Virus record (IMG/VR): IMGVR_UViG_3300042860_001920
Strand: one strand, 5' to 3'
From: a virus
Lineage: Duplodnaviria > Heunggongvirae > Uroviricota > Caudoviricetes
DNA length: 64,000 nt
In this document: in pieces, positions 9,808 through 42,332 of the stretch
Layout of the letters: each line of letters begins with the position of its first letter
How positions within the stretch are numbered: the first letter of the stretch is position 1
Translations under genes and position numbers: made by a program
Notes under the pieces: generated by a model
What the model was told of the DNA's origin: nothing
Databases searched by the model: none
Seen by the model: the letters and a program-made list of their open reading frames with translations, nothing else

Positions 9808-10299
9808 TCATATTTTTAACTCCCAAGGAAAATTTATCCACGTACCCTTCTTAACAGTCCTACAAAAGAAATCAGGCGTACCATCAGCCTCTTGTTTATG
9901 ATATAACGTTGCGGTAGCAATATTATTCTTAACACCATTTTCTTTCAACACTTTAATAATCTCTGTGATCGTCCTACCTGTATCGTAAATATCATCCACA
10001 ATCAATATTTTAGCATTCTTGTCAATATCACGCTTTATCGATTTAGGTATAAACACCTTAACAGAATCGTGCTTTTTGTCAACACCTAAATAGCCTTTTG
10101 TTTGAATTATGTAGAATAAAGCATCTGGATAATATTGTCCGAGCAAACCAGCAGGAATTAAACCACCTTTAGCAACAGGCATAATAACCTGTGGGGTGTA
10201 TTCCGCTTTCTTCAACATTTCTACCATCTCTAAAATGGTGGTATGAATGTGTTTGTAGGTGAGATGTTTAATAGTACTCATAAAATTTGTAAAGTACAT
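9808..10299 (-). CDS. Type I phosphoribosyltransferase
   Basis: PRPP-binding motif ILIVDDIYDTGRTI. Confidence 0.75.
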   Translation of the reverse strand: MYFTNFMSTIKHLTYKHIHTTILEMVEMLKKAEYTPQVIMPVAKGGLIPAGLLGQYYPDALFYIIQTKGYLGVDKKHDSVKVFIPKSIKRDIDKNAKILIVDDIYDTGRTITEIIKVLKENGVKNNIATATLYHKQEADGTPDFFCRTVKKGTWINFPWELKI

Positions 10300-10763
10300 T
10301 CTACAGTTTCTTGTAGGGTTTTACAAGGATTTCTTTGTGTATATAACTGATAAATTGTATCAAGATACTTCGTGTGAATAGCACCATCCGGTCTTCCGTA
10401 TATTACACTATTATTTTTAATATTCATACCAAATTCGACATTAGTTGTCAATCCGGGTAAAGTTTCCATATTTCTAGGAATCCAAAACATAATAACATTA
10501 CAATAATCTAAGCCATTAAGTTCCCAAGTAATTTGATCGTCATAATTAAATTTAACAGCCCAATCTGCACGTTCTGGTACATACACTATACCATCGAATC
10601 CAAAAGATTCTAGTATTTCTAAAGCTTCTGGTCGCCATCCTTTTACGTCATTACTTCGTGGAGTTGGCCCTGCTAGGAAAATAGCCTTCATATAGGGGTC
10701 AATTTTACCACGACCTTGTGCAGGTTTATTATCTGGTGTAAATATTTTCATTATAAATCCCAA
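10278..10763 (-). CDS. Nucleoside 2-deoxyribosyltransferase-like protein (paralogue A)
   Basis: IFLAGPTPR ... IMFWIPR ... GLTTNVEFG ... YGRPD; paralogous to 26577-27065. Confidence 0.45.
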   Translation of the reverse strand: MGFIMKIFTPDNKPAQGRGKIDPYMKAIFLAGPTPRSNDVKGWRPEALEILESFGFDGIVYVPERADWAVKFNYDDQITWELNGLDYCNVIMFWIPRNMETLPGLTTNVEFGMNIKNNSVIYGRPDGAIHTKYLDTIYQLYTQRNPCKTLQETVECTLQIL

Positions 10764-11188
10764 GAATTAGGTGTTCGTTGATTAGATTCGTGTATTACCT
10801 TTGGAACATCTTTCTTTTTCTTCGATTTTTTAAGATGATCTGGTATAATAGTAGTAATGACACCTTCTTTAATAGGTTCGGTTAAAACTTCAAGAGGGTA
10901 GGGATCACTTGCAGAAGGTGTAGACTTTTCTTTATCTTCGTGTAAAAGTTGCAATTCTCGTTTATAATCAATTCCTATGCCAAAATTTTCCATTAATAGT
11001 GCTTCGCTAAATTTATTAGTGATTAAAACGGTCTGATAGTACGTAGGTGGAAATCCTTGATATATTTCTGCTACCATACCCCCTAATAAAGTTACTTCTT
11101 TGCCAATTTCCTGAATAGCTTGATTTACAAGCCTTTGTACCTCATCTACGGATAATCCTGCTAAAATTTTGTATTCTGGTGTGTTCAT
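10751..11188 (-). CDS. Hypothetical protein
   Basis: 145-aa ORF. Confidence 0.45.
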   Translation of the reverse strand: MNTPEYKILAGLSVDEVQRLVNQAIQEIGKEVTLLGGMVAEIYQGFPPTYYQTVLITNKFSEALLMENFGIGIDYKRELQLLHEDKEKSTPSASDPYPLEVLTEPIKEGVITTIIPDHLKKSKKKKDVPKVIHESNQRTPNSWDL

Positions 11189-11266
11189 ATGTAATAATTT
11201 ACCATATTTTCATAAAATTGCAATCAAATTCGATAAATACTTATAAGAAAACAGGAGAATAATTTT

Positions 11267-12058
11267 ATGGCAATACAAATAACAACAATGGAAGTGATTT
11301 CTGGACAATCTTTAAACTATGGTGCTAGTGGGACATATGAAGGATTAGTACGATTCGGTTTAACAGACAGTCTTAGCGTATCATCAGTAACGGCAGTACG
11401 AATAGACGAAATGACTATGGGGAATGCAGTGTCCTCTAGCCCAACAGCTTATACATTTACTATATCTGGTGCAGCATTGCCACGCACACTAGTTGTAGAT
11501 GGTTCTACAACGGAGTATATTGGTTATACAGTAACAGTTAATAATGACTATTTACATGCAAATACAGATAATCTTATATTATCTTCTTATATGACAGCTT
11601 ATGCAGAAATAAGTGCTGGAACTACCCAAGGTGCAGAAACTTCATCTTATAGAGGTAATTTTATGACATCTAATCCGGGTGTTCTTGTTGTTTTAGGTGA
11701 TTCAGCAGCCCCCGATCCTGTTACAGGATTAACCGCTACAGCAGGTGATAAACAAGTGGCTTTAACTTGGACAAATCCCGCCGCTGATTGGGTTACAGTA
11801 ACAGTTGAACAAAGCATTGTGGCTCCTGTGACAGCCGTTGGTATGGGTACAGCCGTTTATACAGCAACTTCACTTTCTATGAGTGCAGTTGATCTTACAG
11901 TTGCGGCTTATTCTGATGAAACTTATTACTATGGTGTATATGCTACCGATGATGTTGGTAAGACTTCTTTGGTTGTTGAAGCTAGTGCTCAACCTACGTG
12001 GGGTATTTGGACATCCCAACTTGAACATGGACGTTTATACATTCAAGGCGAATTCTAA
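11267..12058 (+). CDS. FN3/Ig-like domain protein (possible Hoc-like decoration or adhesin)
   Basis: FN3-like PDPVTGLTATAGDKQVALTWTNP; Ser/Thr-rich; AGGAG RBS; higher GC than surroundings. Confidence 0.5.
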   Translation: MAIQITTMEVISGQSLNYGASGTYEGLVRFGLTDSLSVSSVTAVRIDEMTMGNAVSSSPTAYTFTISGAALPRTLVVDGSTTEYIGYTVTVNNDYLHANTDNLILSSYMTAYAEISAGTTQGAETSSYRGNFMTSNPGVLVVLGDSAAPDPVTGLTATAGDKQVALTWTNPAADWVTVTVEQSIVAPVTAVGMGTAVYTATSLSMSAVDLTVAAYSDETYYYGVYATDDVGKTSLVVEASAQPTWGIWTSQLEHGRLYIQGEF

Positions 12059-12075
12059 GAAACCTTGATAGATAT

Positions 12076-12107
12076 TAGAAAAGAGTCAGGATTAACGTTC
12101 TGACTCT
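12076..12107. terminator. Bidirectional rho-independent terminator hairpin
   Basis: aagagtcag-gattaacgtt-ctgactctt followed by a T-run, with an A/T run on the other side. Confidence 0.6.
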
Positions 12108-12694: not shown

Positions 12695-12712
12695 CCCTTA
12701 TAAAGGGCTATT

Positions 12713-13059: not shown

Positions 13060-13500
13060 ATGAATTTGCCATCACCAGAGATTTATTTTATTAGTGAAAA
13101 AGAAGCTTATCTTTTAACTGATTACACTATTGATACAATTATAGGTAAAATTACTATAAAGCGTGGTTTTATTTTTGATGGGGCATCTATCCCTTGGTTT
13201 GCTTGGTCTATTATAGGCGAAACACCTTTTAATGGTAAGATATTACCTGCCGCAATTGTACATGACATCCTTTATCGCACCCATTATGTAGGTGTAATGA
13301 AGGCTAATGATGTTTGGTACGATCTTTGTAAGCGTAATGATATTGCTTGGGGTAAGCGTCAAGTTATGACACAAGTACTCAATGCCTTTGGGTGGGTTGC
13401 TTATAACCGTGTTACACCAAAAGACATTGAGTATTACAAACAATTTTTAGTTGTTAATTATTATCTTAATCTTAGGATGGAAACATCAATTCTACTCTAG
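13060..13500 (+). CDS. DUF1353-like protein
   Basis: FDGASIPWFAW ... AAIVHDILY. Confidence 0.45.
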   Translation: MNLPSPEIYFISEKEAYLLTDYTIDTIIGKITIKRGFIFDGASIPWFAWSIIGETPFNGKILPAAIVHDILYRTHYVGVMKANDVWYDLCKRNDIAWGKRQVMTQVLNAFGWVAYNRVTPKDIEYYKQFLVVNYYLNLRMETSILL

Positions 13501-13990
13501 CCTGTACAATAGCTTCACCTAATAGGTTTCTACCCCATTTCGTATCATTCAAAATATCTGGATTATCTTCACCCATACCAATACCCCAAATTCTATCTGT
13601 AGGAGAAGCTTCGACCAAATGGTAAGGATCAGTCAAGAATAACAATTCTTTCCATCCCTTATTTTGACCAAATTTATCAACATTGATATCTTTGACATAA
13701 TTAAATGCAACCGTTTCCCATGCCATAGGATCAAAATTCTTAACCATACGACCTAAAGCCTTTTGATCTCTAGGATGATCTGTTGCAAGAATGGCATCAT
13801 AGATTTCCTGATCTTTAAAGAATTTTGCCTTATGAAGCATCATCGCTTGTTCAGCACAATTCACTTCAAGGTTTAATGCTGTACAATGGAACTTACATTC
13901 TGCCCATTGTGAGAAGATTCCCCCGTAGAAGAATATTACATCTAATTCAGGATAAACTGTTGCACCTAATAATTCACTTTTGTATTTCAT
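13472..13990 (-). CDS. NADAR/YbiA-like (DUF1768) protein
   Basis: FFYGGIFSQW ... EQAMMLHKAKFF ... LGRMVKNF ... LVEASPTDRIWGIG matches NADAR-domain conservation. Confidence 0.7.
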   Translation of the reverse strand: MKYKSELLGATVYPELDVIFFYGGIFSQWAECKFHCTALNLEVNCAEQAMMLHKAKFFKDQEIYDAILATDHPRDQKALGRMVKNFDPMAWETVAFNYVKDINVDKFGQNKGWKELLFLTDPYHLVEASPTDRIWGIGMGEDNPDILNDTKWGRNLLGEAIVQARVELMFPS

Positions 13991-13992: not shown

Positions 13993-14604
13993 TTATATCA
14001 TCCTTGTATCTACACCAATTGATTTATAAATCGGATTCACTTCTTCACTTTTAAAACAACTTTTACCCACGTTTGTAGCACCTGCCACGATATGGAATTC
14101 ACCTGTACTACTACCAAATCCACCTGTACCACGACTCGTATCGCTTAATTCATCGACAACCATTATAGGCATATGGATAGTCTTTCTCAAGACAATTTGA
14201 CCAATCCTATCACCCTTTTTGTAAACAGAATTTGTACCATTTACCATTGGAAACTGGTGAAACCTGAATATCAATTCACCACGATATTCATTATCAATTA
14301 ATCCAATGGAATTTTTCAACATTAAATCCATTTTAGTAATAGATGAACGTGGAAATAATTCACAATGATAACCAATAGGTAATTCTATAGCCAATCCAGT
14401 ACGATACTCTCTGTATATGAAAATTTCTCTTACGTTGGCGACTGGATTATCAGCTATATATTCCCTTCTAATCTCTATTTTTTCTACACCATCATCGATA
14501 GCAAACACATCATAACCTGCGTCTGAATTTGGATGCGCCTGTACTGGACATTTTGCGTCAGGGTGTAAAAGCTTGATTTTCATAACATTTATATCATTAT
14601 CCAT
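13993..14604 (-). CDS. dUTPase/dCTP-deaminase family protein
   Basis: AGYDVFA and GLIDNEYRGEL dUTPase-fold motifs. Confidence 0.65.
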   Translation of the reverse strand: MDNDINVMKIKLLHPDAKCPVQAHPNSDAGYDVFAIDDGVEKIEIRREYIADNPVANVREIFIYREYRTGLAIELPIGYHCELFPRSSITKMDLMLKNSIGLIDNEYRGELIFRFHQFPMVNGTNSVYKKGDRIGQIVLRKTIHMPIMVVDELSDTSRGTGGFGSSTGEFHIVAGATNVGKSCFKSEEVNPIYKSIGVDTRMI

Positions 14605-15133
14605 GTCGAACCTTCATCATTTCTTCTACATCGTTAGCAATCACACTAAAAGAATCTTTACAACTTGGAATCTTAAAGAATGGTACATCATTTGCCATTA
14701 AAAGATCATATACAGTACGATCAATACCCTTCGCTTGTTCCTCTGTCTGTAATCGCCCAGAAGGATTGTAAGCCTTTTTACGTTCCAAGAAATAGTTGAC
14801 ATTATTCTGTCTATGAAACACCTCTAATACAAACTTCTTAAAAGTTTCAGTTTCATGTTTACCATAAACCAATGATAATAGCAAGGGTGAATCTGTAATA
14901 ATCACATCAACCTTTCCCAATAGTCGATGAATAGCGTGTAACTGCTTACCAAAGATATAAATCTGGTTCTCAAGGATGCCTAATGAGCCTTCCCAAACCT
15001 TTTCCTTGGCAAATTCAGGAGCCATTTCACAGTTAATGCCACGCAATTTCAACTCACTGAACACACCTGCCATAGTGGTTGATTTACCAGTTCCCGGACC
15101 TGCAAATAAATTTACTACAATTGTTTTACTCAT
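14597..15133 (-). CDS. P-loop NTPase / small kinase
   Basis: Walker A LFAGPGTGKSTT; 178 aa. Confidence 0.5.
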   Translation of the reverse strand: MSKTIVVNLFAGPGTGKSTTMAGVFSELKLRGINCEMAPEFAKEKVWEGSLGILENQIYIFGKQLHAIHRLLGKVDVIITDSPLLLSLVYGKHETETFKKFVLEVFHRQNNVNYFLERKKAYNPSGRLQTEEQAKGIDRTVYDLLMANDVPFFKIPSCKDSFSVIANDVEEMMKVRHG

Positions 15134-21743: not shown

Positions 21744-23123
21744 TCACCAAGTTCCAACATTCTTACGAACTTCGTCAAAGGTATATTCTTTAAGGATTTC
21801 ACCATCACGAAACACTTCAACTAATTCGTCAGGACGAGGATCACTTAATCCAACAGTATGAAAATCACCCTTTTCATCTTTAATGAGTTTCAACTTACCT
21901 TTCTTGGAAACCTTACTAACTTCCAAAGGATTTTTAAAGATATCGTACCATACACCCTCACGGCATTGTGCAGAAGATTTAAATGCAAAACGCTGAAAAT
22001 CCCTGTCGATCTTTTGTAGTAAGCCTCCACCTTGACCAAAAACTTGACTATCAGTAGAGTACATATTATTACTCAAACTGAATAAGATGCTACGGATACC
22101 CGCATAATCAATACCGTCACCCCATAGAACACCAAGTTTTGGGTGTAATTCCTTATAACCTTTGTCATTTTTAGTTGTTCCAAAGATATCCGCAACCATA
22201 TTAAACACATCAATTGTTACAGATGTGGGATCGCCCGAATCTGGGCGTAAAACAAGCTTACCATTACGAGCAAGAATCACATCCTTATACTTACGAACAA
22301 TTACATTTACAAAGTTCTTATAGTCGTAAGAATCGATAACCACACTCAAGATACCTTCTGGATATGTACCAAGTAATTCAGCAAAAACTTGTTCTTCGCC
22401 TTCTTTACCCCTAGCTGTCATGACCGAATGTTCAGTAGCCGGGACTGAATATGCCAATCCGTCTAGTGGTGCATTGTAGTATTCCATTGCCACTTCCATA
22501 GCCTTTACGGTATCAGTACCAAGAAAATTTAGCAAATGTCCTGCACCAAGCACACCAGCAGATTCTACAGAGCTAACACCCCTGAATCCAAAATCATGTA
22601 AACCAAACTTAATTCCATTACGTGTTCCTGTGCGATCACGATAAAATTCAATCAATTTATATGTCTCATAGGAAAGACTTGCGACAGTCGAAGCTCCCCA
22701 AATCTGAGACAATAATGTTTCCAAATGATTCGTCAAAGGCGCACACTTAGGATCAGTATTAACAACCGTCATAAGAACGTTTGAAACTGATACAGGAGTA
22801 CCTTCTGGTACTGCCTTGATGCTGATAGGTAGCTTCCCATCATACTTCTCAAGTATGTATTCCCACATCTCACGATTAAAATTCTTTTCAGTACCAAAGT
22901 GAGCCTTACAAAGTTTTGCGGCACTTTCGATACCCTTACGAGTAACTACCGTACCCTGCAAGTATGCTTTAAGGTAATATTGCAAACCGAAAAACACAGT
23001 CTTGTTGTACTTGGCTCCATTACGAGACTCAAAGTATGAGTAAATGTATTCCGTACCTTTGGGATACTGTTGAAAATGCGTAAATTTATAACTATCAGTC
23101 AATGTAATAATGTTGTTTTCCAT
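21744..23123 (-). CDS. nadV: Nicotinamide phosphoribosyltransferase (Nampt/NadV)
   Basis: 459 aa with GLHDFGFRGVSSVESAGVLGAGHLLNFLGTDTV and other Nampt-like blocks. Confidence 0.85.
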   Translation of the reverse strand: MENNIITLTDSYKFTHFQQYPKGTEYIYSYFESRNGAKYNKTVFFGLQYYLKAYLQGTVVTRKGIESAAKLCKAHFGTEKNFNREMWEYILEKYDGKLPISIKAVPEGTPVSVSNVLMTVVNTDPKCAPLTNHLETLLSQIWGASTVASLSYETYKLIEFYRDRTGTRNGIKFGLHDFGFRGVSSVESAGVLGAGHLLNFLGTDTVKAMEVAMEYYNAPLDGLAYSVPATEHSVMTARGKEGEEQVFAELLGTYPEGILSVVIDSYDYKNFVNVIVRKYKDVILARNGKLVLRPDSGDPTSVTIDVFNMVADIFGTTKNDKGYKELHPKLGVLWGDGIDYAGIRSILFSLSNNMYSTDSQVFGQGGGLLQKIDRDFQRFAFKSSAQCREGVWYDIFKNPLEVSKVSKKGKLKLIKDEKGDFHTVGLSDPRPDELVEVFRDGEILKEYTFDEVRKNVGTW

Positions 23124-23176: not shown

Positions 23177-23368
23177 TTACAACCCTCTAAAAAATCCAAC
23201 GCTACAGCCACTAGAAACCGAAACGCAAAGAACTGTCCTATCTTCAAAAGAGTTATAACGGTATAATACTGCTTCCGCTATAGCCACTTTAAAGTGGAAA
23301 ATATATTTCCATACATTCTTTTCAGGACTTTCAAAGCATATTGGCTCTTTTTCAAATAAGTCGTTCAT
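23177..23368 (-). CDS. Small hypothetical protein
   Basis: 63-aa ORF whose ATG lies 2 nt after the natV stop. Confidence 0.35.
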   Translation of the reverse strand: MNDLFEKEPICFESPEKNVWKYIFHFKVAIAEAVLYRYNSFEDRTVLCVSVSSGCSVGFFRGL

Positions 23369-26346: not shown

Positions 26347-26580
26347 TTAATCCTTTACAAAGCCACCAAAATTAGCTTCATACATTTCAAACTTATCACC
26401 ATCATGTTCAACAATCCAACTATGTATGGGGATTCTTGATTCGATAGCAGTTACTATATAAGATGGAGTGTTACCATAACCTTTCCAAATAACTACATCA
26501 CCGACTTCAATATCTTCCCAATCTTTAGTCACAACGCCATCACCTTGACAATATGGACAAGTTTTAATATGGTTATTCAT
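26347..26580 (-). CDS. Hypothetical protein
   Basis: 77-aa ORF with CPYCQ. Confidence 0.45.
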   Translation of the reverse strand: MNNHIKTCPYCQGDGVVTKDWEDIEVGDVVIWKGYGNTPSYIVTAIESRIPIHSWIVEHDGDKFEMYEANFGGFVKD

Positions 26581-28941: not shown

Positions 28942-29202
28942 TCATACTTTTACAGGATGTACAGTAATAAATTTGTGAACGAGAAACTTACCAGAAATTT
29001 CCCCCTTCTTAGTAAATTCTTTGTCACCCATTCCTGTCATGTATAAGTGTCGGTGCAATAAACATCGATTTGTCAATAAATTTAAAAGGTTGAATCCTTT
29101 ACGTGTAACCTTAATCATTCTGGTTTTAATAATCTTACCATTATAATAAGATACATCGTAGAACTCACCTAATTTCAAATCAACTGACTGTAGGTTTCTC
29201 AT
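28942..29202 (-). CDS. Hypothetical protein
   Basis: 86-aa ORF. Confidence 0.45.
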   Translation of the reverse strand: MRNLQSVDLKLGEFYDVSYYNGKIIKTRMIKVTRKGFNLLNLLTNRCLLHRHLYMTGMGDKEFTKKGEISGKFLVHKFITVHPVKV

Positions 29203-31185: not shown

Positions 31186-31764
31186 TTATTTACCGTAGCC
31201 AGTAGTATACGCAATTATTGGTGCAAAGTCAAGATATTGTTTCGGAACATTATCAGTCAACCATACCCCATTCTCGGATTTGTAAAACTTAAACCCATTC
31301 TTATGCATTACACCCGCATGTACCATAAGAATAATAGGTTCTCCATGTCGTGAACCTACTGAATAAGCTGTTTTAAGATTGTCAGATAAATGAACGTGTT
31401 GACGCTCCATTTTCTTCAAACCTTCTTTCATGATACCATTAAGAAAACGTTTAGCTGTTCCATGATATAAAATATCTTCTGGAACACTCTCAGGAAGATT
31501 CAAATTAATATTAATCGAATGTCCCTGAGAGGCACGAATCTTTGTACCATCATCACTATAGGCGAAACGCTTCTTATTGTTCTCTTCAACCACCTTATCA
31601 AGAAAATTCCTATTAAGGTAAGTGTCAGGCTTATAGTAATTATTGTATCTGCGGATTAATTCATTGACATCAACCCAACCTTCGGAATCCATATTCAATT
31701 TCAAAAGTTCTGGTTTATGTCGTAAACTTAAACACAATATTTTACTAACTTTGCGAATGTCCAT
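31186..31764 (-). CDS. kptA: RNA 2'-phosphotransferase (Tpt1/KptA)
   Basis: LRHKPE, EGW, KKRFAYSDDGTKIRASQGHS, LYHGTAKRFL, RQHVHLS, ENGVWLT all align with KptA/Tpt1. Confidence 0.9.
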   Translation of the reverse strand: MDIRKVSKILCLSLRHKPELLKLNMDSEGWVDVNELIRRYNNYYKPDTYLNRNFLDKVVEENNKKRFAYSDDGTKIRASQGHSININLNLPESVPEDILYHGTAKRFLNGIMKEGLKKMERQHVHLSDNLKTAYSVGSRHGEPIILMVHAGVMHKNGFKFYKSENGVWLTDNVPKQYLDFAPIIAYTTGYGK

Positions 31765-32120: not shown

Positions 32121-33311
32121 TTATTCCTCTTCCGCTTTCACATTGTAAATAGGCTTGATCTGCTTCAACACCGTAACCGTATCCTGAATGTTCTCCAAGA
32201 TTTCAGCAATAGGCTTGTAAGCATCAGGTGCTTCGTCCAACGTAGACGCACCCACCGTAGATGAATAAATATCCTTCATCGTATCCTTGAACCCTTCCAA
32301 AGACAATTCACGCTTCGCCTGTTTACGAGACATTAAACGACCTGCACCATGAGGCGCAGAATAGTTATAATCTTCGTTACCCTTACCAACACAGATTAAC
32401 GAACCATCACGCATATTGATAGGAATTAAGCACACTTCACCCGCTTTCGCAGAGATAGCACCTTTACGCAAAATCATAGCATGAACATCAATGTAGTTAT
32501 GAATCGTTTCAAATTGTTCAGTAGGCTTAATATGCATTGTACGGCACAAGATATCTGCAATAGCCTTACGGTTCTCACTTGCCATCTTCTGAGCAATATG
32601 CATATCGTTTAAGTAACAATCAAACAAGTCACCTTCCAAATAGGTCAAAGCTTCGTTAGCCACGGCATTACGTTTCTTCAATTCAGCAGGAATCATGTGT
32701 TGTAACCCCTTGGCTTTCAACTCGTTAATGATTTCTTGAGTAGACTTCAAACCCTTCTTGGAATGATAATCAACAGCCTTGTTCTGGTAATGTTCAGCAA
32801 CACGCTTACCAAAGTTACGAGAACCCGTATGTACGACTAAATAAAAATTACCCTCATCGTCCTTATCAATTTCGATAAAGTGGTTTCCACCACCCAACGA
32901 ACCAATGGACTTACAAACCTGACGAGGATCAAAAGCTTCCTTACAGATAGCCTTATCCAATTCAGGAGTAAAGTCAACCACCATAGACTGACGAGAATTC
33001 ATACCCATAGGGATGTTACGCTTAACAATTGAGTCAACCTGTTCCAAGGTTAAAGAAAGCGTATCAAATTTAGTCACAAGAACCCCACATCCGATATCAA
33101 CCCCGGTTAAATTAGGAACAATTTTATCAATAATTGTCATAGTAGTACCAATAACACATCCCTTACCAGAATGACAGTCTGCCATAATGCGTATTTTAGA
33201 GTTATATACCCATTCTTCATTACATAACTCTAAAATTTGTGCTTCACAAGAAGGTTCGACTGTTGATGCAAACACCTTCGCAGTATTAAATTGTCCTTTA
33301 ATCTCTTTCAT
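32121..33311 (-). CDS. rtcB: RNA-splicing ligase RtcB
   Basis: 396 aa with CHSGKGCVIGTTM, HTGSRNFG and PHGAGR RtcB-like blocks. Confidence 0.85.
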   Translation of the reverse strand: MKEIKGQFNTAKVFASTVEPSCEAQILELCNEEWVYNSKIRIMADCHSGKGCVIGTTMTIIDKIVPNLTGVDIGCGVLVTKFDTLSLTLEQVDSIVKRNIPMGMNSRQSMVVDFTPELDKAICKEAFDPRQVCKSIGSLGGGNHFIEIDKDDEGNFYLVVHTGSRNFGKRVAEHYQNKAVDYHSKKGLKSTQEIINELKAKGLQHMIPAELKKRNAVANEALTYLEGDLFDCYLNDMHIAQKMASENRKAIADILCRTMHIKPTEQFETIHNYIDVHAMILRKGAISAKAGEVCLIPINMRDGSLICVGKGNEDYNYSAPHGAGRLMSRKQAKRELSLEGFKDTMKDIYSSTVGASTLDEAPDAYKPIAEILENIQDTVTVLKQIKPIYNVKAEEE

Positions 33312-37708: not shown

Positions 37709-38827
37709 TTAAAGTGTGTAATAAATCAACTTTTTGTAAATCTCGCTAATTGCGTAATTATCAACAGCATATCGAAGCTTAGTAGTATCCTTTAATACTT
37801 CCAATTCCTTCATCTTTTCTTCAACAGCGTTCATAATAAAATTATATTCAAACTTACCTGCACGAATGTCACGTAGATACTGCAACTGTTCACCATCAAA
37901 TCGAACAAGTGGCACACCATTTGTCAAGATGTTCTTTCCACTTAACATTAGTCTCATGCAATGCATCATATTCTTTTGATCGTAGTCAAGCAATCCCTTT
38001 TCCTGATCCACCCAACGTGCATCATTACGATTATTCTTCCACTCCCAATAAGACTTCCATTCAGCTACATCACGCTTATAGGCATCTTCATTCCAAATGA
38101 GTAAGCCATAAAACTTAGTAACTTCGTCTTCCAATGGGATAGACTCTGGCACAAGATTTTCATCACCACGAAACACACCTTTAGCTTCATCACCGTAGTA
38201 ATAAAGTCTATAGATATGTGCAGTTTGTTCAAGTCTAGCACAATTAAATTTACTCAAATCAAAAGGAACTACTTCGGTACTGCCACCATAAGTACTAGTA
38301 ATTTCAGTAAGTTTAATAGGTCTAGCAGGTGGAAGATTGTATATCCTTCCCTCTGGAATTACAAAGCAGTAATCTTCCTTGACAGGACGCTCTACAGGCT
38401 TCGGATTATTCACCTTCTTATTCTTACCCTTTGCCTTTTGAATCTGTGCATAAGCGTATCCATTAAAACTATGGTAAGACTTCTGACTTACAAACAATTC
38501 ATTATTGGTAAGTAATACATCCATTCGGGCATCCTTATAAATGATGCACTCAGCGGGAGTAAACAATAGCTCTAACACATTGGGATTATTTTCAGCGCAA
38601 AGTTGCATGAACTTCTGTAGTTCAAAAAACTTGATATCCTGTTTATCATCAGCGACTTCCAATTGGTGATCGTCAAATAAAGTCTTTTCACTTTCAGGAA
38701 AAATATAGATACCCCTGATATCGGTATCAGAGGTTTCAATATTGGTTCCATAAGCATGTGAACCACTGATACATTCAAAGATGATGTATCCTGTCTTTCG
38801 CAAATCTTCAACAGTCATTTTCTTCAT
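37709..38827 (-). CDS. Pol-beta-superfamily nucleotidyltransferase
   Basis: N-terminal ISGSHAYGTNIETSDTDIRG (GS ... DxD). Confidence 0.55.
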   Translation of the reverse strand: MKKMTVEDLRKTGYIIFECISGSHAYGTNIETSDTDIRGIYIFPESEKTLFDDHQLEVADDKQDIKFFELQKFMQLCAENNPNVLELLFTPAECIIYKDARMDVLLTNNELFVSQKSYHSFNGYAYAQIQKAKGKNKKVNNPKPVERPVKEDYCFVIPEGRIYNLPPARPIKLTEITSTYGGSTEVVPFDLSKFNCARLEQTAHIYRLYYYGDEAKGVFRGDENLVPESIPLEDEVTKFYGLLIWNEDAYKRDVAEWKSYWEWKNNRNDARWVDQEKGLLDYDQKNMMHCMRLMLSGKNILTNGVPLVRFDGEQLQYLRDIRAGKFEYNFIMNAVEEKMKELEVLKDTTKLRYAVDNYAISEIYKKLIYYTL

Positions 38828-38829
38828 AA

Positions 38830-39291
38830 TTAATCTTCCGCAATCAAAATTTTATCGGCTTTATCGATACAAGAGATATTAGGTCGTTGTAAGATGTTAC
38901 CCATTCGTTCAATCACTTCTTCTGGAACCTTATCTTCTACTCGCTTACTATTACGAGAATAGCACTTCATAATGGGTATGTCAATAAAAACAATTTTGGT
39001 AGTATATTCGTATTCATCAGCCATATTCACCCACTCATTACGAATTTGTGCCACCAAACCAGTTGAATTTATAATCACATCTTTGCCTTGTGATAAAAGC
39101 ATTCTGGTAATACTTTTCGCCATACCGATGATAAATGGTTCAGCTTCTTTATGATACTGATGTCCAAAGATATGTCTACGAATCCAATCAAGTTCAACTA
39201 CAACGTGAGACTTCTTGTTATTTTTAATCCAAGTGTTCTTACCACAAGCGGGTAAGCCCATCATTATAATCATTTCAGGCTTCTTTTTCAT
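38830..39291 (-). CDS. Polynucleotide 5'-kinase (Pnk kinase-domain-like, no phosphatase domain)
   Basis: Walker A GLPACGKNTW; SRNSKRVEDKVPEEVIERM matches T4 Pnk KRNSKRGTKAVPIDVLRSM. Confidence 0.65.
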   Translation of the reverse strand: MKKKPEMIIMMGLPACGKNTWIKNNKKSHVVVELDWIRRHIFGHQYHKEAEPFIIGMAKSITRMLLSQGKDVIINSTGLVAQIRNEWVNMADEYEYTTKIVFIDIPIMKCYSRNSKRVEDKVPEEVIERMGNILQRPNISCIDKADKILIAED

Positions 39292-40096: not shown

Positions 40097-40256
40097 ATTT
40101 ACCTCAAGTAATTACTATGTGAAAATGATGCCATAACCAGATGATAATGTCAACACATTTCCATATACCTAATGGGACAAATATTACACACGCTATCATC
40201 ATCGTTGCAATAACTTCACCCATACCGCTGAATGCTGAACCGTCCATATATATACC

Positions 40257-40742: not shown

Positions 40743-40995
40743 CCCATTTAAATTCCACTCGTCCTGAATAGTCTACCACATCCCAATAAGCAAAGCCACC
40801 TTTAATTGCTTGAATTTGAAAGTTTTTTACCGCTTCACTAATCTCTGCCTGATGTCTCACTTGTTCTTCAATGGCATGTTGCCTACTATACATTAAAATC
40901 AATGCTTCATGGTCAGCGTTATCAAATGGATATCCCGCACACCCACCAGAATAAAGTAACACAATCGATAGTAGGACACTTTGTAATAGTTTCAT
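40723..40995 (-). CDS. Putative lipoprotein
   Basis: Signal peptide with lipobox LYSGGC. Confidence 0.45.
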   Translation of the reverse strand: MKLLQSVLLSIVLLYSGGCAGYPFDNADHEALILMYSRQHAIEEQVRHQAEISEAVKNFQIQAIKGGFAYWDVVDYSGRVEFKWVGQKRK

Positions 40996-41059
40996 ATAAC
41001 ACGCACATTAGCAACATTTTACACCAAATAGTAAAAGGATTACAATGATAATAATAGCT

Positions 41060-41245
41060 TTATCCGAATTTTTCATTTTCAAGTCTTTCTGACAACTCGG
41101 TTAATTTCTTACTTAACACTACCATACGGGCATCCATTTCGACAAGTGTTAATTTCTTGTCGTTATAATCATCCAACACTTCATTGCATAACGTTCTAAT
41201 GTTAGCAGTTTGTAATAATAGTTCGGTTCTTACTTTATTTTCCAC
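41060..41245 (-). CDS. Hypothetical protein
   Basis: 61-aa ORF. Confidence 0.35.
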   Translation of the reverse strand: MENKVRTELLLQTANIRTLCNEVLDDYNDKKLTLVEMDARMVVLSKKLTELSERLENEKFG

Positions 41246-41636
41246 GATAACCTATAATCTTAAATTGTTCCTGATAATATTCAGGAGGCTGTTGTGCAAT
41301 TTTATTCCACAAATCTTTGATAATGACTTTACGTTTTTCTAACGTATCTTCATCGTATACTCGTTCCTCTACTTCAATAGCCTTACCAAGGTCTGGATTG
41401 ATCGGGGGAAGTACTTGTGTAGTATCTGAGGCATCTTCCTCAATGTGTTTACCCTCTCGGCTCACATAATTTGACAAATACTCTTCAATAGTTTTACCGT
41501 TCTTTTGGAGTTGTCTACGCAAAAGTGTTACATTAATTTTACTTTGTTTCCCTGTCACACGACATGTAACAAATGTAGGAAATGTATTATCTTTTGGGCG
41601 ACCTTGCTTACGTTTTTCTGCATTTTCAATATTCAT
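41235..41636 (-). CDS. Hypothetical protein
   Basis: 133-aa ORF. Confidence 0.45.
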   Translation of the reverse strand: MNIENAEKRKQGRPKDNTFPTFVTCRVTGKQSKINVTLLRRQLQKNGKTIEEYLSNYVSREGKHIEEDASDTTQVLPPINPDLGKAIEVEERVYDEDTLEKRKVIIKDLWNKIAQQPPEYYQEQFKIIGYRGK

Positions 41637-41801
41637 ACTTCAAATACCCTTCCTTGCTTAACGACTAATTGTTTAGCACTAAATCCATTCCAGTATCTAT
41701 AATCCTTAATAGTATCTCTGGCTTGTTGTCTTGTGAACGTATACCATCTATGTTCACCAGATTCCTTCTCTTTGATAATCCATAACGTTTTTATTTTCAT
41801 A

Positions 41802-42332
41802 TTAACCTTTCAACTTATAGACTACCACAGCGATATCATTTTTGCAAAGGATATCTTCAACCATCTGTACAATTTTGTTCCAATCACCTCTGGCACGATC
41901 TGCACCCATTTTATAAGGCATATGTACAGAAAATTCAAATCTTTCTGCATAATTCTTAACATGCGTTAAACAACTATCCAAGGCATCATAGCGGATAGGT
42001 GGATTACCATGTTCATCAGCACCAACCATGTGTTGACCTACCATATTAGCTACCACGATATCATATAGTGATGGTGGGGATACAGTCACAAATTGTGTCT
42101 TACCTAGTCGGAAAGCTGTATCAACATCAAAAGTATTCGGTTCATTAAACCATCGAATGTATTCACTACGAACTTTAGGCCATTTTTCATACAAAGCTCT
42201 AGCAACGCCAGAACCCATCATACCTTGATCGTTCACTATATGCATAATAAGCGTACTAACTAATATTCCATTATCACTAACAAGTGAAATAGGATCAGTA
42301 AGATCACCCTCAACATATTTTATTTTAACCAT
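41802..42332 (-). CDS. Macro domain protein (ADP-ribose binding/processing)
   Basis: KYVEGDLTDP ... HIVNDQGMMGSGVARAL resembles the macro-domain GDIT ... VNAAN ... GGGV core. Confidence 0.6.
   Translation of the reverse strand: MVKIKYVEGDLTDPISLVSDNGILVSTLIMHIVNDQGMMGSGVARALYEKWPKVRSEYIRWFNEPNTFDVDTAFRLGKTQFVTVSPPSLYDIVVANMVGQHMVGADEHGNPPIRYDALDSCLTHVKNYAERFEFSVHMPYKMGADRARGDWNKIVQMVEDILCKNDIAVVVYKLKG

What the first reader, a model, noticed from the sequence alone, without database searches (positions are those of the whole stretch)
9808..42332. NAD+ reconstitution and ADP-ribose processing module spread over the region
The relevant genes are:
- Nampt (21744-23123).
- A bifunctional Nmnat-Nudix (23370-24278).
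- A type I PRTase (9808-10299).
- A NADAR/YbiA-like protein (13472-13990).
- A macro domain protein (41802-42332).
- Tpt1, which consumes NAD+ and produces ADP-ribose 1''-2'' cyclic phosphate.

The Nampt plus Nmnat pair is the published phage NARP2 pathway, which restores NAD+ depleted by host defence systems. NADAR and macro domains are known to remove or process ADP-ribose adducts.

Taken together the gene set looks like a broad anti-NAD-depletion and anti-ADP-ribosylation toolkit.
Basis: partly seen in the sequence, partly recalled or inferred. Interest (0 to 1): 0.6.

Follow-up and report, generated by a model that had tools for sequence, protein, structure and literature searches.

The report
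Phage NAD salvage beside RNA repair
A large uncultured phage carries the known two-gene NAD+ rebuilding pathway (NARP2), but most of the other listed "NAD/ADP-ribose" genes sit in a tRNA/RNA-repair island and in nucleotide-salvage operons, a known jumbo-phage pattern and not one new module.

Summary
All six genes exist where stated; Tpt1, listed without coordinates, is at 31186-31764(-). Domain calls hold. Nampt (2e-116 to human NAMPT) and an adjacent NadM-type Nmnat-Nudix form a NARP2-type pair. NADAR is real but of the YbiA (Glu) subtype. The macro protein is missed by Pfam but is a confident SCO6735/Bt_1257-type macrodomain. Tpt1 has its full catalytic tetrad. The PRTase is a purine-type type I enzyme, not an NAD enzyme.

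They are not one module. About 60 other genes separate them. Tpt1 and the macro lie in a 17-kb RNA-repair island (RtcB, two ligases, RlaP, AAA_33 kinase, Metallophos). PRTase and NADAR lie in nucleotide-metabolism operons.

The macro carries a conserved Asp where SCO6735 needs Gly128. Relatives with this Asp loop sit next to RNA ligases of three families and never next to Nampt in the loci read. Canonical Gly-loop relatives often directly follow Nampt and Nmnat in other phages, and one lineage has Nampt-like, PF15891, NADAR and Macro as consecutive genes.

So the "toolkit" theme is real at family level and already published (Iyer et al. 2021, 2022; NARP2; AdfN). Verdict: a new member of known kinds. 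The Asp-loop macro variant is the only modestly new item.

The parts
21744..23123 (-). Nampt (NadV-type nicotinamide phosphoribosyltransferase), first NARP2 enzyme
   Evidence: NAMPT_N 6e-39 plus NAPRTase 4e-36. NF006629 539 bits, above the 405 cutoff. 2e-116 to human NAMPT, with HDFG (D177), GH196LLNF, R293-P-D295-SG and GGGLLQK aligned.
23177..23368 (-). 63-codon ORF between Nmnat-Nudix and Nampt, function unknown
   Evidence: Called in all contigs that carry this Nampt. A 64%-identical copy occurs in L073.
23370..24278 (-). Bifunctional NadM-type NMN adenylyltransferase plus Nudix (ADP-ribose pyrophosphatase-type), second NARP2 enzyme
   Evidence: NUDIX 5e-13. NF003791 9e-12; PDB 2qjt and 2qjo. 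Motifs H24SAH27, ISGSEIR and REVQEETG are shared with L103 and L031 homologues. It is adjacent to Nampt here and also in LR756502 and Tunturi_5.
31186..31764 (-). Tpt1/KptA NAD+-dependent RNA 2'-phosphotransferase
   Evidence: PF01885 2.5e-48. NF002014 231.5 bits, just under its 239 cutoff. 6e-48 to Runella Tpt1 7kw8, with R15-H16, R77 and R121 aligned.
32121..33311 (-). RtcB RNA ligase, one small ORF upstream of Tpt1
   Evidence: PF01139 7e-59.
41802..42332 (-). SCO6735/Bt_1257-type (ALC1-like class) macrodomain, Asp-loop variant (G143-A-D145-R-A-R148-G)
   Evidence: PDB hits 2e-25 and 2e-21. Model pLDDT 92.8 and Foldseek TM 0.95. N34 and Q100 are conserved while the Gly128 equivalent is Asp145. 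The variant is conserved in the subfamily.
42849..43982 (-). PHA02142-type RNA ligase (Rnl), two genes upstream of the macro
   Evidence: PF21189 1.5e-30 plus PF09414 7e-22. It co-travels with the Asp-loop macro in L007, L010 and L117.
37709..38827 (-). RlaP RNA-repair nucleotidyltransferase
   Evidence: PF10127 5e-23. 79% identical in L007, next to the macro.
38830..39291 (-). AAA_33 polynucleotide-kinase-like P-loop kinase
   Evidence: PF13671 3e-21. Recurs near Asp-loop macros in L007, L010, L117 and L118.
29199..30362 (-). ATP-dependent ligase (DNA_ligase_A_M plus OB); DNA or RNA sealing role unresolved
   Evidence: PF01068 8e-15. Co-travels with the repair set in L007 and L010.
27118..27858 (-). 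Calcineurin-like metallophosphoesterase, candidate RNA end-healing phosphoesterase
   Evidence: PF00149 8e-8; phrog_1649. A Metallophos gene also lies near Asp-loop macros in L117 and L118.
13472..13990 (-). NADAR domain protein, YbiA subfamily (Glu127)
   Evidence: PF08719 3e-42. TIGR02464 126 bits, above the 73.7 cutoff. E47, K54, R81, W91, E127, D132 and W135 align to PnNADAR 8bau.
9808..10299 (-). Type I purine/xanthine-type phosphoribosyltransferase (nucleotide salvage, not NAD synthesis)
   Evidence: PF00156 4e-17. PDB 1vdm 1.6e-19 and 4z1o 2e-16. NF006613 XPRT 1.4e-14. Its start overlaps the PF15891 gene 10278-10763 by 22 nt.
26577..27065 (-). PF15891 nucleoside-2-deoxyribosyltransferase-like protein, a possible overlooked member of the NAD/ADPr set
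   Evidence: PF15891 1.7e-6, which is 28.7 bits and below the gathering cutoff of 30. It is 55% identical to the gene lying between Nampt-like and NADAR in L103.
14597..15133 (-). AAA_28 P-loop nucleoside/nucleotide kinase (NadR-RNK-like or dNMP-kinase-like; unresolved)
   Evidence: PF13521 5e-8. phrog_2107 'thymidylate kinase' 9e-14. The best fold match is NadR 8x7f, TMq 0.70, only just ahead of thymidylate kinases.

Best explanation
The region holds three separate functional units of a jumbo-class phage. They share the metabolites NAD+, ADP-ribose and PRPP, but they are not one module.

**1. NARP2-type NAD+ salvage pair.**
- Nampt makes NMN from nicotinamide and PRPP.
- The NadM-type enzyme adenylylates NMN to NAD+.
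- Its Nudix half splits ADP-ribose into AMP and ribose-5-phosphate.
- Together these rebuild NAD+ when host NADase defences deplete it. The enzyme identities are shown; the anti-defence role is inferred from KVP40.

**2. A roughly 17-kb RNA-repair island (27.1-44.0 kb).**
- Host anticodon nucleases leave 2',3'-cyclic-phosphate and 5'-OH ends.
- RtcB can seal these ends directly.
- Alternatively the Metallophos phosphoesterase and the AAA_33 kinase heal the ends, RlaP replaces lost nucleotides and Rnl seals.
- Tpt1 then uses one NAD+ per event to remove a residual 2'-phosphate, releasing ADP-ribose 1''-2'' cyclic phosphate.
- The Asp-loop macrodomain most likely clears an ADP-ribose-phosphate by-product or an ADP-ribosylated RNA end. 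This step is inferred.
- A CCA-adding enzyme, PTH2 and phage tRNA-Lys/Leu genes elsewhere in the window fit the same theme.

**3. Nucleotide-salvage operons.** These hold the purine PRTase with a PF15891 enzyme, and the YbiA-type NADAR with a dUTPase-like protein and an AAA_28 kinase. The NADAR is an N-glycosidase whose substrate here is unknown: ADP-ribosyl-guanine or a ribosylamine metabolite.

The NAD+ pair plausibly also feeds the NAD+-consuming Tpt1.
For: **Enzyme identities and active-site residues:**

**Organisation**
- Only Nampt and Nmnat-Nudix are neighbours.
- Tpt1 lies one small ORF from RtcB.
- The macro lies two genes from Rnl.
- RlaP abuts the AAA_33 kinase.
- The PRTase start overlaps the PF15891 gene.
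- NADAR, the dUTPase-like gene, AAA_28 and the next ORF are packed with 2-nt gaps to 8-nt overlaps.

**Comparative evidence**
- The Asp-loop macro recurs with RlaP, Rnl, the ATP ligase, AAA_33, DUF5662 and P-loop-GNAT in shuffled order in L007 and L010. It also recurs with other ligase families: an HNH-Rnl, Metallophos and HD-AAA_33 run in L118, and T4-type Rnl1 in L120.
- Cluster-level counts within 7 kb: Asp-loop macros have RNA-repair neighbours in 5 of 10 clusters and NARP2 neighbours in 0 of 10. Gly-loop macros have 5 of 58 and 13 of 58. Fisher p = 0.004 for the RNA-repair difference.
- The Nampt/Nmnat-Nudix adjacency is conserved in LR756502 and Tunturi_5.
- The macro model also resembles yeast Poa1p, the Appr1p phosphatase of tRNA splicing.
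- tRNA-Lys(UUU) and tRNA-Leu(UAA) genes and a CCA-adding enzyme lie in the window.

**Literature**
- NARP2: bioRxiv 10.1101/2024.02.11.579819.
- KptA with 2H and Macro in jumbo-phage RNA repair, plus RlaP, CCA-adding enzyme and calcineurin-like phosphatases: PMC7824862, PMC9503650.
Against: - No 2H cyclic phosphodiesterase was found in the window, so the canonical route to a 2'-PO4 substrate is incomplete. It rests on the uncharacterised Metallophos protein or on the unseen roughly 155 kb of the genome.
- Asp-loop macro contigs showed no Tpt1 within 7-10 kb. The macro is therefore not obligatorily tied to Tpt1's product.
- Most Asp-loop loci were reached through the window's nearest homologues, so shared ancestry inflates the association.
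- In other phages, Gly-loop macros and NADARs of the same families sit directly beside Nampt and Nmnat.
- SCO6735, TARG1 and DarG, the macro's relatives, do remove ADP-ribose from DNA. All tested NADAR subfamilies remove it from guanine in vitro (PMC9411070, PMC11125620).
- Early-gene regions of big phages are dense mosaics, so proximity alone is weak evidence.
- Promoter and terminator scans were at chance level, so operon boundaries are not established.
Confidence: 0.6

Rival explanations
1. One reading: one dispersed counter-defence toolkit. NARP2 restores NAD+. The NADAR and the macro mainly strip host-inflicted ADP-ribose from phage DNA or RNA, acting against DarTG1 (guanine) and DarTG2 (thymine) or similar systems. 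Tpt1 is just another NAD+ user.
For: - The NADAR catalytic set is intact. All four tested NADAR subtypes hydrolyse G-ADPr in vitro, and T4 AdfN and other phage NADAR clades neutralise DarTG1 (PMC11125620, PMC11825919).
- The macro keeps the Asn27 and Gln85 equivalents of SCO6735, which removes T-ADPr and rescues DarT toxicity (PMC9411070).
- In other phages, macro and NADAR genes are contiguous with Nampt and Nmnat.
- Published work reports co-occurrence of Macro, NADAR and Nudix (PMC9503650).
Against: - The macro has Asp145 at the Gly128 position, where G128E gives a substantial loss of SCO6735 activity and is argued to repel DNA (PMC9411070). It also has Arg148 in place of the next conserved Gly.
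- Asp-loop relatives neighbour RNA ligases and were not found near NAD genes.
- The NADAR is YbiA-type (Glu127). E. coli YbiA failed to protect against DarT1 in vivo, and only one distant YbiA-like phage NADAR was noted among the anti-DarTG1 sets (PMC11125620, PMC11825919).
- The PRTase is unrelated to NAD.
- In this genome the genes lie 3-10 kb apart in different local contexts.
Confidence: 0.22
2. Auxiliary metabolism without a specific anti-defence role. The phage simply boosts NAD+ and nucleotide pools for its own NAD+-dependent and replication enzymes during a large burst, as first proposed for KVP40. The NADAR, macro and Nudix proteins are house-cleaning enzymes for by-products.
For: - NARP2 raises NAD+ even in cells without a defence system (bioRxiv 10.1101/2024.02.11.579819).
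- YbiA-type NADARs are described as housekeeping N-glycosidases in riboflavin metabolism (PMC11825919), and TIGR02464 scores above its cutoff.
- NADAR and the PRTase sit among dUTPase-like, kinase and PF15891 nucleotide enzymes.
Against: - NARP2 from KVP40 abolishes Thoeris and DSR2 defence, and it is costly because it drains PRPP (same preprint). That cost argues for selection by defence pressure.
- The surrounding RNA-repair island, the tRNA genes and rIIA/rIIB are classic conflict genes.
Confidence: 0.13
3. The macro and NADAR degrade soluble ADP-ribose-derived immune signals or toxins, such as cADPR isomers from Thoeris TIR proteins or ADPr-1''-phosphate. They would not act on macromolecular adducts or repair by-products.
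For: [quoted passage not shown]
- Gly-loop macros follow Nampt and Nmnat, often with a DSP-like phosphatase between.
- The extra Arg residues in the window's loop could bind an additional phosphate (inference).
Against: - No experimental support exists for this macro subclass.
- The window's copy has RNA-repair neighbours and not NAD-salvage neighbours.
- Sequence alone cannot separate this reading from by-product clearance.
Confidence: 0.15

Closest known systems
NARP2 of Vibrio phage KVP40 (NadV Nampt plus NatV Nmnat-Nudix)
   Same: Same two enzymes and the same domain architecture: a NAMPT_N plus type II PRTase barrel, and NMNAT fused to Nudix. The genes are adjacent. The expected chemistry is nicotinamide plus PRPP giving NMN, then NAD+ (bioRxiv 10.1101/2024.02.11.579819; PMC13464706).
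   Different: The Nmnat-Nudix is very divergent. A tblastn search of 50,697 phage records found only 16 matches, the best at 44% identity (uncultured huge phages and Tunturi_5), and none among them was KVP40. It has a two-residue insertion in the GRFQ..HxxH motif, shared with L103. A 63-codon ORF lies between the two genes. Direct identity to the KVP40 proteins was not measured.
SCO6735 (S. coelicolor) and Bt_1257 macrodomains, ALC1-like class (with TARG1 and DarG)
   Same: Same fold (TM 0.95 to 2afc) at 34-37% identity. The Asn27 and Gln85 equivalents and the long mobile loop are conserved.
   Different: Gly128 is Asp145 and the following Gly is Arg148, with a one-residue insertion (PYKMGADRARG against P-RIGCGLAGG). 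This variant is conserved in a phage subfamily. The host and context differ too: phage RNA-repair islands, as opposed to a DNA-damage-induced bacterial gene (PMC9411070).
T4 AdfN (gp30.3) and other phage NADARs that neutralise DarTG1; E. coli YbiA
   Same: NADAR fold with the conserved Glu and Lys pair (E47, K54) and the ADPr-contacting Arg, Trp and Asp residues.
   Different: The diagnostic last-strand residue is Glu127 (YbiA family), not His (gp30.3/AdfN) or Asp (DarG1). It scores above the cutoff for the YbiA-type riboflavin-intermediate N-glycosidase model. Unlike bacterial YbiA it is phage-borne, and relatives sit beside Nampt and Macro in L103.
Tpt1/KptA in RNA-repair clusters (Runella slithyformis Tpt1; yeast Tpt1 to Poa1 by-product pathway; jumbo-phage KptA noted by Iyer et al.)
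   Same: Full-length Tpt1 with the R-H-R-R tetrad; the closest solved relative is Runella Tpt1. It is flanked by RNA ligases, as described for jumbo phages (PMC7824862, PMC9503650). A macro that structurally resembles Poa1p is present.
   Different: No 2H phosphoesterase was detected in the window. The nearest ligase is RtcB, which does not leave a 2'-PO4. The macro lies 10 kb away, and in relatives it occurs without a nearby Tpt1.
Viral NAD+-ADPr networks (Iyer, Burroughs, Anantharaman, Aravind 2021/2022)
   Same: The same inventory (NadV, NadM-Nudix, KptA, Macro, NADAR, TIR/DrHyd/SLOG-class Rossmannoid proteins) and the same reasoning. NADAR next to NadM and NadV is explicitly described (PMC9503650).
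   Different: Within the SCO6735-type macros, I found no text describing the split into a Gly-loop form linked to Nampt and Nmnat (often with a DSP-like phosphatase) and an Asp-loop form linked to RNA ligases. The figures of that paper could not be inspected.

Membership tests
NARP2 (phage NAD+ reconstitution pathway 2) | Nampt-clade nicotinamide phosphoribosyltransferase with intact active site | tested here: met
   PF18127 plus PF04095. NF006629 539 bits against a 405 cutoff. 2e-116 to human NAMPT, with the D219, H247, R311 and D313 equivalents (D177, H196, R293, D295) aligned.
NARP2 (phage NAD+ reconstitution pathway 2) | Nmnat encoded by the same phage (94% of Nampt phages), in KVP40 fused to a Nudix module | tested here: met
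   An adjacent gene with NadM-type NMNAT (NF003791 9e-12; 2qjt, 2qjo) plus NUDIX 5e-13. The HxxH and ISxxxxR motifs are present.
NARP2 (phage NAD+ reconstitution pathway 2) | Homology to the KVP40 NadV and NatV proteins by the authors' search criterion | not tested
   The KVP40 genes were not in the one region fetched. tblastn with the window Nmnat-Nudix at E<=1e-5 listed 9 Vibrio-phage records, with none of the displayed rows being KVP40.
NARP2 (phage NAD+ reconstitution pathway 2) | No Adps/Namat (NARP1) in the same genome | tested here: inconclusive
   No Prs-like gene is present in the 64-kb window, but about 155 kb of the 219-kb contig was not seen.
NARP2 (phage NAD+ reconstitution pathway 2) | Restores NAD+ and phage growth against NAD+-depleting defences | not testable with these tools
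   Requires infection assays and NAD+ measurement.
SCO6735/Bt_1257 subclass of ALC1-like macrodomains (thymidine-ADPr DNA hydrolases) | Macrodomain fold closest to Bt_1257 and SCO6735 | tested here: met
   phmmer 2e-25 and 2e-21. AF2 pLDDT 92.8. Foldseek 3.6e-17, TM 0.95.
SCO6735/Bt_1257 subclass of ALC1-like macrodomains (thymidine-ADPr DNA hydrolases) | Asn27 and Gln85 (Gln in place of the TARG1/DarG catalytic Lys) | tested here: met
   N34 and Q100. Both are invariant in all 89 sequences aligned.
SCO6735/Bt_1257 subclass of ALC1-like macrodomains (thymidine-ADPr DNA hydrolases) | Gly128 in the phosphate-binding loop (conserved in SCO6735, Bt_1257, DarG and TARG1; G128E gives a substantial loss of activity) | tested here: not met
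   Asp145 occupies this position and the next conserved Gly is Arg148. No placement of the gap restores a Gly there (PMC9411070).
DarG antitoxin | Catalytic Lys80 and a C-terminal DarT-binding domain | tested here: not met
   It is a 176-aa single domain with Gln at the Lys position. Only a 30-40-residue match to the DarG models was found (E 3e-4 and 2e-5).
NADAR superfamily, YbiA subfamily | NADAR domain with the conserved Glu and Lys, and Glu in the last beta-strand | tested here: met
   PF08719 3e-42. TIGR02464 126 bits against a 73.7 cutoff. E47, K54 and E127 align to PnNADAR E43, K50 and E125.
Phage AdfN/gp30.3-type NADAR (anti-DarTG1) | His in the last-strand position; membership of the T4-like gp30.3 cluster | tested here: not met
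   The residue is Glu127. All 14 viral relatives retrieved also have Glu ('VEASPxDRIWG').
Phage AdfN/gp30.3-type NADAR (anti-DarTG1) | Removes ADP-ribose from guanine in DNA and neutralises DarT1 during infection | not testable with these tools
   Needs biochemical and plaque assays.
Tpt1/KptA RNA 2'-phosphotransferase | PTS_2-RNA domain with the Arg-His-Arg-Arg catalytic tetrad | tested here: met
   PF01885 164.9 bits against a cutoff of 26. R15, H16, R77 and R121 align to Runella Tpt1 R16, H17, R64 and R119. The NCBIfam equivalog scores 231.5 bits, just below its 239 cutoff.
Canonical 2H to Tpt1 to 2H/Macro RNA 2'-phosphate clean-up pathway | A 2H cyclic phosphodiesterase that generates the 2'-PO4 and opens Appr>p | tested here: not met
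   No real ORF carries paired HxT/S motifs, and there was no 2H hit in any Pfam or PHROG scan of the window. Only a Metallophos candidate is present. The rest of the genome was not seen.
NAD-pathway phosphoribosyltransferase (as implied for the type I PRTase) | Type II PRTase fold (NAPRT/NAMPT/QAPRT) or Prs/Adps-like PRPP synthetase | tested here: not met
   It is a 163-aa type I PRTase. Its best matches are archaeal purine PRTs (1vdm 1.6e-19; 4z1o, 4trb) and XPRT. Prs models match only the PRPP loop.

The most novel reading that the evidence does not exclude
The Asp-loop, one-residue-insertion form of the SCO6735/Bt_1257 macrodomain (PY-K-M-G-A-D-R-A-G/R-G) may be a distinct, phage-borne RNA-repair enzyme. 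It would clear ADP-ribose-phosphate by-products (Appr>p or Appr1p) or remove ADP-ribose from RNA phosphate ends before ligation. Its Gly-loop sisters would form the third or fourth gene of extended 'NARP2-plus' operons (Nmnat-Nudix, Nampt, DSP-like phosphatase, Macro). In this phage the NARP2 pair would then also serve as the NAD+ supply for Tpt1-driven tRNA repair. That would link counter-defence against NADases to counter-defence against anticodon nucleases.
Probability: 0.25. Interest if true: 0.6.

Novelty: new member of a known kind. Interest (0 to 1): 0.33.

Why it matters
If the reading is right, this phage is a compact natural example of how large phages couple NAD+ supply to NAD+-consuming RNA repair. 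NARP2 is experimentally validated in only one phage.

Two testable leads come out of the analysis.
- A single loop change (Gly to Asp, plus Arg) in a well-studied macrodomain family tracks with a switch of genomic partners, from NAD salvage genes to RNA ligases. This is a ready-made hypothesis about substrate specificity.
- Many phages extend the two-gene NARP2 with a macrodomain, and often a Cys-phosphatase, that the defining study did not include.

Neither lead overturns current understanding. The overall gene inventory and its logic were already laid out by comparative-genomic surveys in 2021-2022.

Tried and rejected
- **Close DNA relatives:** megablast of 6 kb around the NAD genes against 50,697 phage records found no match.
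- **Pfam on the macro ORF:** no hit. It was rescued by PDB sequence search and by fold search.
- **Operon boundaries:** the promoter/terminator consensus scan of 20.9-25.6 kb gave 22 promoter-like sites against 20 expected and 2 terminator-like sites against 2.2 expected, so it says nothing about boundaries.
- **2H phosphoesterase:** the motif search hit only the PRTase and off-frame ORFs. PHROG scans of unknown ORFs (39288-39800, 36878-37687, 15130-15678, 9095-9691) gave nothing.
- **Nmnat-Nudix in viral contigs:** a single-sequence scan returned nothing because the patterns were too specific.
- **KVP40 comparison:** the 195-245 kb region I fetched held only structural genes. I did not page through the rest, so identity to the validated NARP2 proteins is unmeasured. 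The original KVP40 paper is not in the library.
- **AAA_28 protein as an NR kinase (a NARP3-like step):** unresolved. There is no PDB sequence hit, and NadR is the best fold match only marginally ahead of thymidylate kinases.
- **Loop classification:** my first regex-based attempt failed on about 40% of sequences and was replaced by alignment-column classification.
- **Model geometry:** model coordinates are not exposed, so I could not measure where Asp145, Arg146 and Arg148 sit relative to the ADP-ribose pocket.
- **PADLOC:** nothing decisive beyond NADAR matching candidate PDC-M42C and PRPP-loop-only matches for the PRTase.
- **Other NAD users:** no ADP-ribosyltransferase, sirtuin or NAD-dependent ligase appeared among the other large ORFs tested.

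Full report
**What the window is.** The window is about 35% GC and almost all genes are tightly packed on the minus strand. It carries rIIA and rIIB, a CCA-adding tRNA nucleotidyltransferase and tail-fibre genes, and two tRNA genes. The exact Nampt protein is encoded on a 219-kb JGI metagenome contig and on several shorter contigs. Megablast finds no near relative among 50,697 phage records. By protein similarity the nearest relatives are uncultured huge phages and large soil or plant-pathogen phages, at 40-46% identity. So this is the early/auxiliary region of an uncultured jumbo-class myovirus-like phage.

**Checking the six genes.**
- **Nampt (21744-23123).** NAMPT_N and NAPRTase domains are present. 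NCBIfam NF006629 scores 539 bits (cutoff 405). It matches human NAMPT at 2e-116, and the signature active-site segments align (HDFG, GH196LLNF, R293-P-D295-SG, GGGLLQK).
- **Nmnat-Nudix (23370-24278).** Pfam recognises only the Nudix half. The N-terminal 125 residues match NadM-type bifunctional NMNAT/Nudix models (NF003791 9e-12) and the Francisella and Synechocystis NadM-Nudix structures (2qjt 3e-6, 2qjo 1e-5). The nucleotidyltransferase motifs are present as GRFQ-VH-ELH24SAH27 and I134SGSEIR, and the Nudix core as REVQEETG. The two-residue insertion is shared with a 43%-identical viral homologue in L103. Ala in place of Gly in HxGH also occurs in a canonical homologue in L031.
- **PRTase (9808-10299).** This is a genuine type I PRTase, but its best relatives are archaeal purine PRTases (1vdm 1.6e-19; Sulfolobus GpT-1 and GpT-2) and xanthine PRTase. 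PRPP-synthetase models match only the PRPP loop. It is not an NAD enzyme.
- **NADAR (13472-13990).** PF08719 scores 3e-42. It also exceeds the cutoff of TIGR02464, the YbiA-type N-glycosidase model. Aligned to the ADP-ribose-bound Phytophthora NADAR (8bau), it keeps E47, K54, R81, W91, E127, D132 and W135. The last-strand residue that separates the subfamilies is Glu in YbiA, Asp in DarT1-linked NADARs and His in phage gp30.3/AdfN (PMC11125620, PMC11543638). Here it is Glu127.
- **Macro (41802-42332).** It has no Pfam hit. It matches Bt_1257 (2e-25) and S. coelicolor SCO6735 (2e-21). The AlphaFold model (pLDDT 92.8) superposes on Bt_1257 with TM 0.95. The next matches are the ALC1 macro, yeast Poa1p, TARG1 and DarG.
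- **Tpt1.** The finding gave no coordinates. It is 31186-31764, with PF01885 at 2.5e-48 and 6e-48 to Runella Tpt1. The Arg-His-Arg-Arg tetrad aligns.

**How the genes are arranged.** Only Nampt and Nmnat-Nudix are neighbours, with a 63-codon ORF between them. The other genes belong to different local contexts.
- **Tpt1 and the macro.** Tpt1 is one small ORF from RtcB. The stretch 27.1-44.0 kb also holds a Metallophos phosphoesterase, a P-loop-GNAT protein, an ATP-dependent ligase, DUF5662, RlaP abutting an AAA_33 polynucleotide-kinase-like protein, the macro, and a PHA02142-type RNA ligase two genes from the macro. PTH2 flanks Nampt, and a CCA-adding enzyme and tRNA-Lys(UUU) and tRNA-Leu(UAA) genes lie elsewhere in the window.
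- **The PRTase.** Its start overlaps a PF15891 nucleoside-deoxyribosyltransferase-like gene by 22 nt.
- **The NADAR.** It is packed head-to-tail with a dUTPase/dCTP-deaminase-like gene, an AAA_28 kinase and an unknown ORF.

Promoter and terminator scans were at chance level.

**An unexpected feature of the macro.** Mapped onto SCO6735 (chain offset 20), Asn27 and Gln85 are conserved (N34, Q100). These are the residues on which its unusual mechanism depends. Gly128 is different. It is conserved in SCO6735, Bt_1257, DarG and TARG1, and its G128E mutation causes a substantial loss of activity (PMC9411070). In the window it is Asp145. The next conserved Gly is Arg148, and there is a one-residue insertion: PYKMGADRARGDW against P-RIGCGLAGGxW. 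This is not decay. The closest homologues share PY/F-K-M-G-A-D-R-A-G/R-G. In an alignment of 89 family members, all keep the Asn and Gln, while the Gly128 column holds 71 Gly, 11 Asp and 7 other residues.

**Comparative neighbourhoods.**
- **Asp-loop macros (from contigs encoding the window macro's homologues).**
  - L007: next to RlaP (79% identical to the window's), the ligase, Rnl, DUF5662, P-loop-GNAT and AAA_33, in a different order.
  - L010 and L117: next to Rnl, an RlaP/Gad2-like nucleotidyltransferase, AAA_33, the ligase or Metallophos.
  - L118: directly after an HNH-Rnl, Metallophos and HD-AAA_33 run.
  - L120: 1.4 kb from a T4 Rnl1-type ligase, and directly after an isochorismatase/nicotinamidase-family gene.
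  - L119: shows a 163-aa PRTase instead.
  - Sources.
- **Gly-loop macros (from 80 IMG/VR loci).** Most are Gly-loop. In 12 loci the macro is the gene right after Nampt, usually with Nmnat-Nudix before Nampt. A DSP-like Cys phosphatase often lies between Nampt and the macro, as in L031.
- **Counts by loop type.** Clusters were collapsed at 80% macro identity, and neighbours within 7 kb were scored by phmmer using several ligase families.

| Loop type | Clusters | RNA-repair neighbours | NARP2 neighbours |
|---|---|---|---|
| Asp-loop | 10 | 5 | 0 |
| Gly-loop | 58 | 5 | 13 |

  Fisher p = 0.004 for the RNA-repair difference. The caveat is that Asp-loop loci were mostly reached through the window's own homologues, so relatedness inflates the contrast.
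- **NADAR relatives.** All 14 viral relatives carry the YbiA-type Glu. One lineage (L103-L105) has Nampt-like, PF15891 (55% identical to window 26577-27065), NADAR, Macro and dCMP deaminase as consecutive genes, with Nmnat-Nudix 2.5 kb upstream.
- **Tpt1 relatives.** Ten viral loci showed RlaP or RtcB nearby in four, and never Nampt within 10 kb.

**Most likely mechanism.** I read the region as three units linked by shared metabolites.
1. **A NARP2-type pair.** Nampt converts nicotinamide and PRPP to NMN. The NMNAT domain makes NAD+. The NadM-type Nudix domain, by homology to the ADP-ribose pyrophosphatases 2qjo and 2qjt, splits ADP-ribose to AMP and ribose-5-phosphate. The anti-defence role is inferred from KVP40, where the pair abolishes Thoeris and DSR2 defence (bioRxiv 10.1101/2024.02.11.579819).
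2. **An RNA-repair island.** Cleaved tRNAs are sealed by RtcB directly. Alternatively they are healed (Metallophos, AAA_33 kinase), patched (RlaP; activity shown for bacterial RlaP in PMC12776372) and sealed (Rnl). Tpt1 spends one NAD+ to remove a 2'-phosphate. The Asp-loop macro plausibly clears Appr>p or Appr1p, or removes ADP-ribose from RNA phosphate ends. This scheme follows published proposals for jumbo phages (PMC7824862, PMC9503650). The macro step and the link from the NAD+ pair to Tpt1 are my inference.
3. **Nucleotide-salvage operons.** These contain the purine PRTase and the YbiA-type NADAR, whose substrate here is open.

Confidence in this reading is about 0.6.

The main weaknesses are as follows. 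No 2H phosphodiesterase is present in the window. Asp-loop macros occur without a nearby Tpt1. Gly-loop macros and NADARs demonstrably cluster with Nampt elsewhere, so a real functional tie between NAD salvage and ADPr processing exists at family level.

**Rivals.**
It has biochemical precedent. All NADAR subtypes remove guanine-ADPr in vitro, T4 AdfN defeats DarTG1, and SCO6735 removes thymine-ADPr (PMC11125620, PMC11825919, PMC9411070). Against it here are the macro's Asp145, its RNA-ligase company, the YbiA subtype of the NADAR (E. coli YbiA did not protect against DarT1 in vivo) and the irrelevant PRTase.
- **Housekeeping metabolism, about 0.13.**
- **Degradation of soluble ADPr-derived signals, about 0.15.**

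Neither of the last two can be excluded.

**Comparison with what is known, and novelty.** NARP2 is published. NadM-Nudix with NadV in phages, KptA with Macro in jumbo-phage RNA repair, NADAR next to NadM and NadV, and co-occurrence of Macro, NADAR and Nudix are all described (PMC9503650, PMC7824862). This locus is a new, divergent member of known kinds. The modestly new points are the Asp-loop subfamily of SCO6735-type macros tied to RNA ligases, and the recurrent Nmnat, Nampt, (DSP phosphatase), Macro arrangement. I found no text describing either, but I could not inspect the figures.

**Also examined.** The AAA_28 protein (14597-15133) could be a nicotinamide-riboside kinase. It belongs to the Pfam family that contains NadR's kinase domain. 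JGI names two homologues that way. NadR (8x7f) is its best fold match, with TM 0.70. Thymidylate kinases score almost as well, and PHROGs calls the family a thymidylate kinase. It remains unresolved.

**Scores.** Interest is 0.33. The finding is correct in substance but largely ordinary for a jumbo phage and already explained in the literature. It carries one specific, testable biochemical lead.

Noticed in passing
window 54905-54987 (-) and 55536-55610 (-): The phage encodes tRNA-Leu(UAA) and tRNA-Lys(UUU). From my own knowledge, tRNA-Lys(UUU) is the classic target of the PrrC anticodon nuclease, so these genes fit the RNA-repair theme of the neighbouring island.
   Followed up: no
L029-L031, L038-L040, L042, L043, L051, L061, L066, L067 (e.g. 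L031 6808-10564): In other viral contigs a Gly-loop SCO6735-type macro is the gene directly after Nampt, usually with Nmnat-Nudix before Nampt. A DSP-like Cys phosphatase is often inserted between Nampt and the macro (7 of 58 clusters). This is an extended 3-4-gene 'NARP2-plus' operon. I found no text describing it in the papers read.
   Followed up: partly
L103 4321-11598 (same in L104, L105): This lineage has a compact cluster: Nmnat-Nudix, then a 553-aa Nampt-like gene, a PF15891 protein, NADAR, Macro (PF01661) and dCMP deaminase as consecutive genes. It is a contiguous version of the set that is dispersed in the window.
   Followed up: partly
window 27878-28912 (-): This 344-aa protein has an N-terminal P-loop and a C-terminal GNAT acetyltransferase (phrog_11143, unknown function; weak PADLOC mad3 hit). 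It is 81% identical in L007 and travels with the RNA-repair genes. It may be an RNA-modifying or repair-associated enzyme.
   Followed up: partly
window 10278-10763 (-) and 26577-27065 (-): There are two paralogous PF15891 (nucleoside 2-deoxyribosyltransferase-like) genes. The first overlaps the PRTase start by 22 nt. The second, which scores just under the Pfam gathering cutoff, is 55% identical to the gene wedged between Nampt-like and NADAR in L103, so it may belong to the NAD/ADPr set.
   Followed up: partly
window 14597-15133 (-): This AAA_28 P-loop kinase belongs to a very large, highly conserved metagenomic family: about 2000 homologues, with the best 120 listed at 54-95% identity. Its best fold match is E. 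coli NadR (8x7f), the structure that contains the NR-kinase domain, only just ahead of thymidylate kinases. It sits near NADAR here and in L121, and next to Tpt1 in L017.
   Followed up: partly
L120 1944-2961: An isochorismatase/nicotinamidase-family gene lies directly upstream of an Asp-loop macro, with a T4 Rnl1-type RNA ligase 1.4 kb downstream. This contig mixes the NAD-salvage and RNA-repair themes.
   Followed up: no
window 33351-34046 (-); L010 6928-8487 and 13632-14495: A GIY-YIG/NUMOD3 homing endonuclease sits next to RtcB in the window. In a related contig the RNA ligase and the ATP ligase carry intein-like insertions. The repair island is a hotspot for selfish elements.
   Followed up: no
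window 35509-36804 (-): A 431-aa SPFH/Band-7 domain protein lies inside the RNA-repair island and is 65% identical in L010. Its role is unknown.
   Followed up: no
window 18232-19329 (-): This 365-aa protein has a weak SPASM (radical-SAM accessory) match. Distant homologues (22-26% identity) lie about 1.3 kb from NADAR in L109-L113.
   Followed up: no
window 25920-26345 (-), 21209-21631 (-), 48372-48749 (-), 44473-44808 (-): Other auxiliary genes are a DenV-like pyrimidine-dimer glycosylase, a PTH2 peptidyl-tRNA hydrolase immediately downstream of Nampt, a SprT-like protein and a small dCMP-deaminase-like protein.
   Followed up: no
L119 5280-6764: A 163-aa type I PRTase, related to the window's at 1e-16, lies about 1 kb from an Asp-loop macro. 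This was the only hint that the PRTase family might associate with the ADPr genes, and it is too sparse to interpret (2 of 73 clusters).
   Followed up: partly
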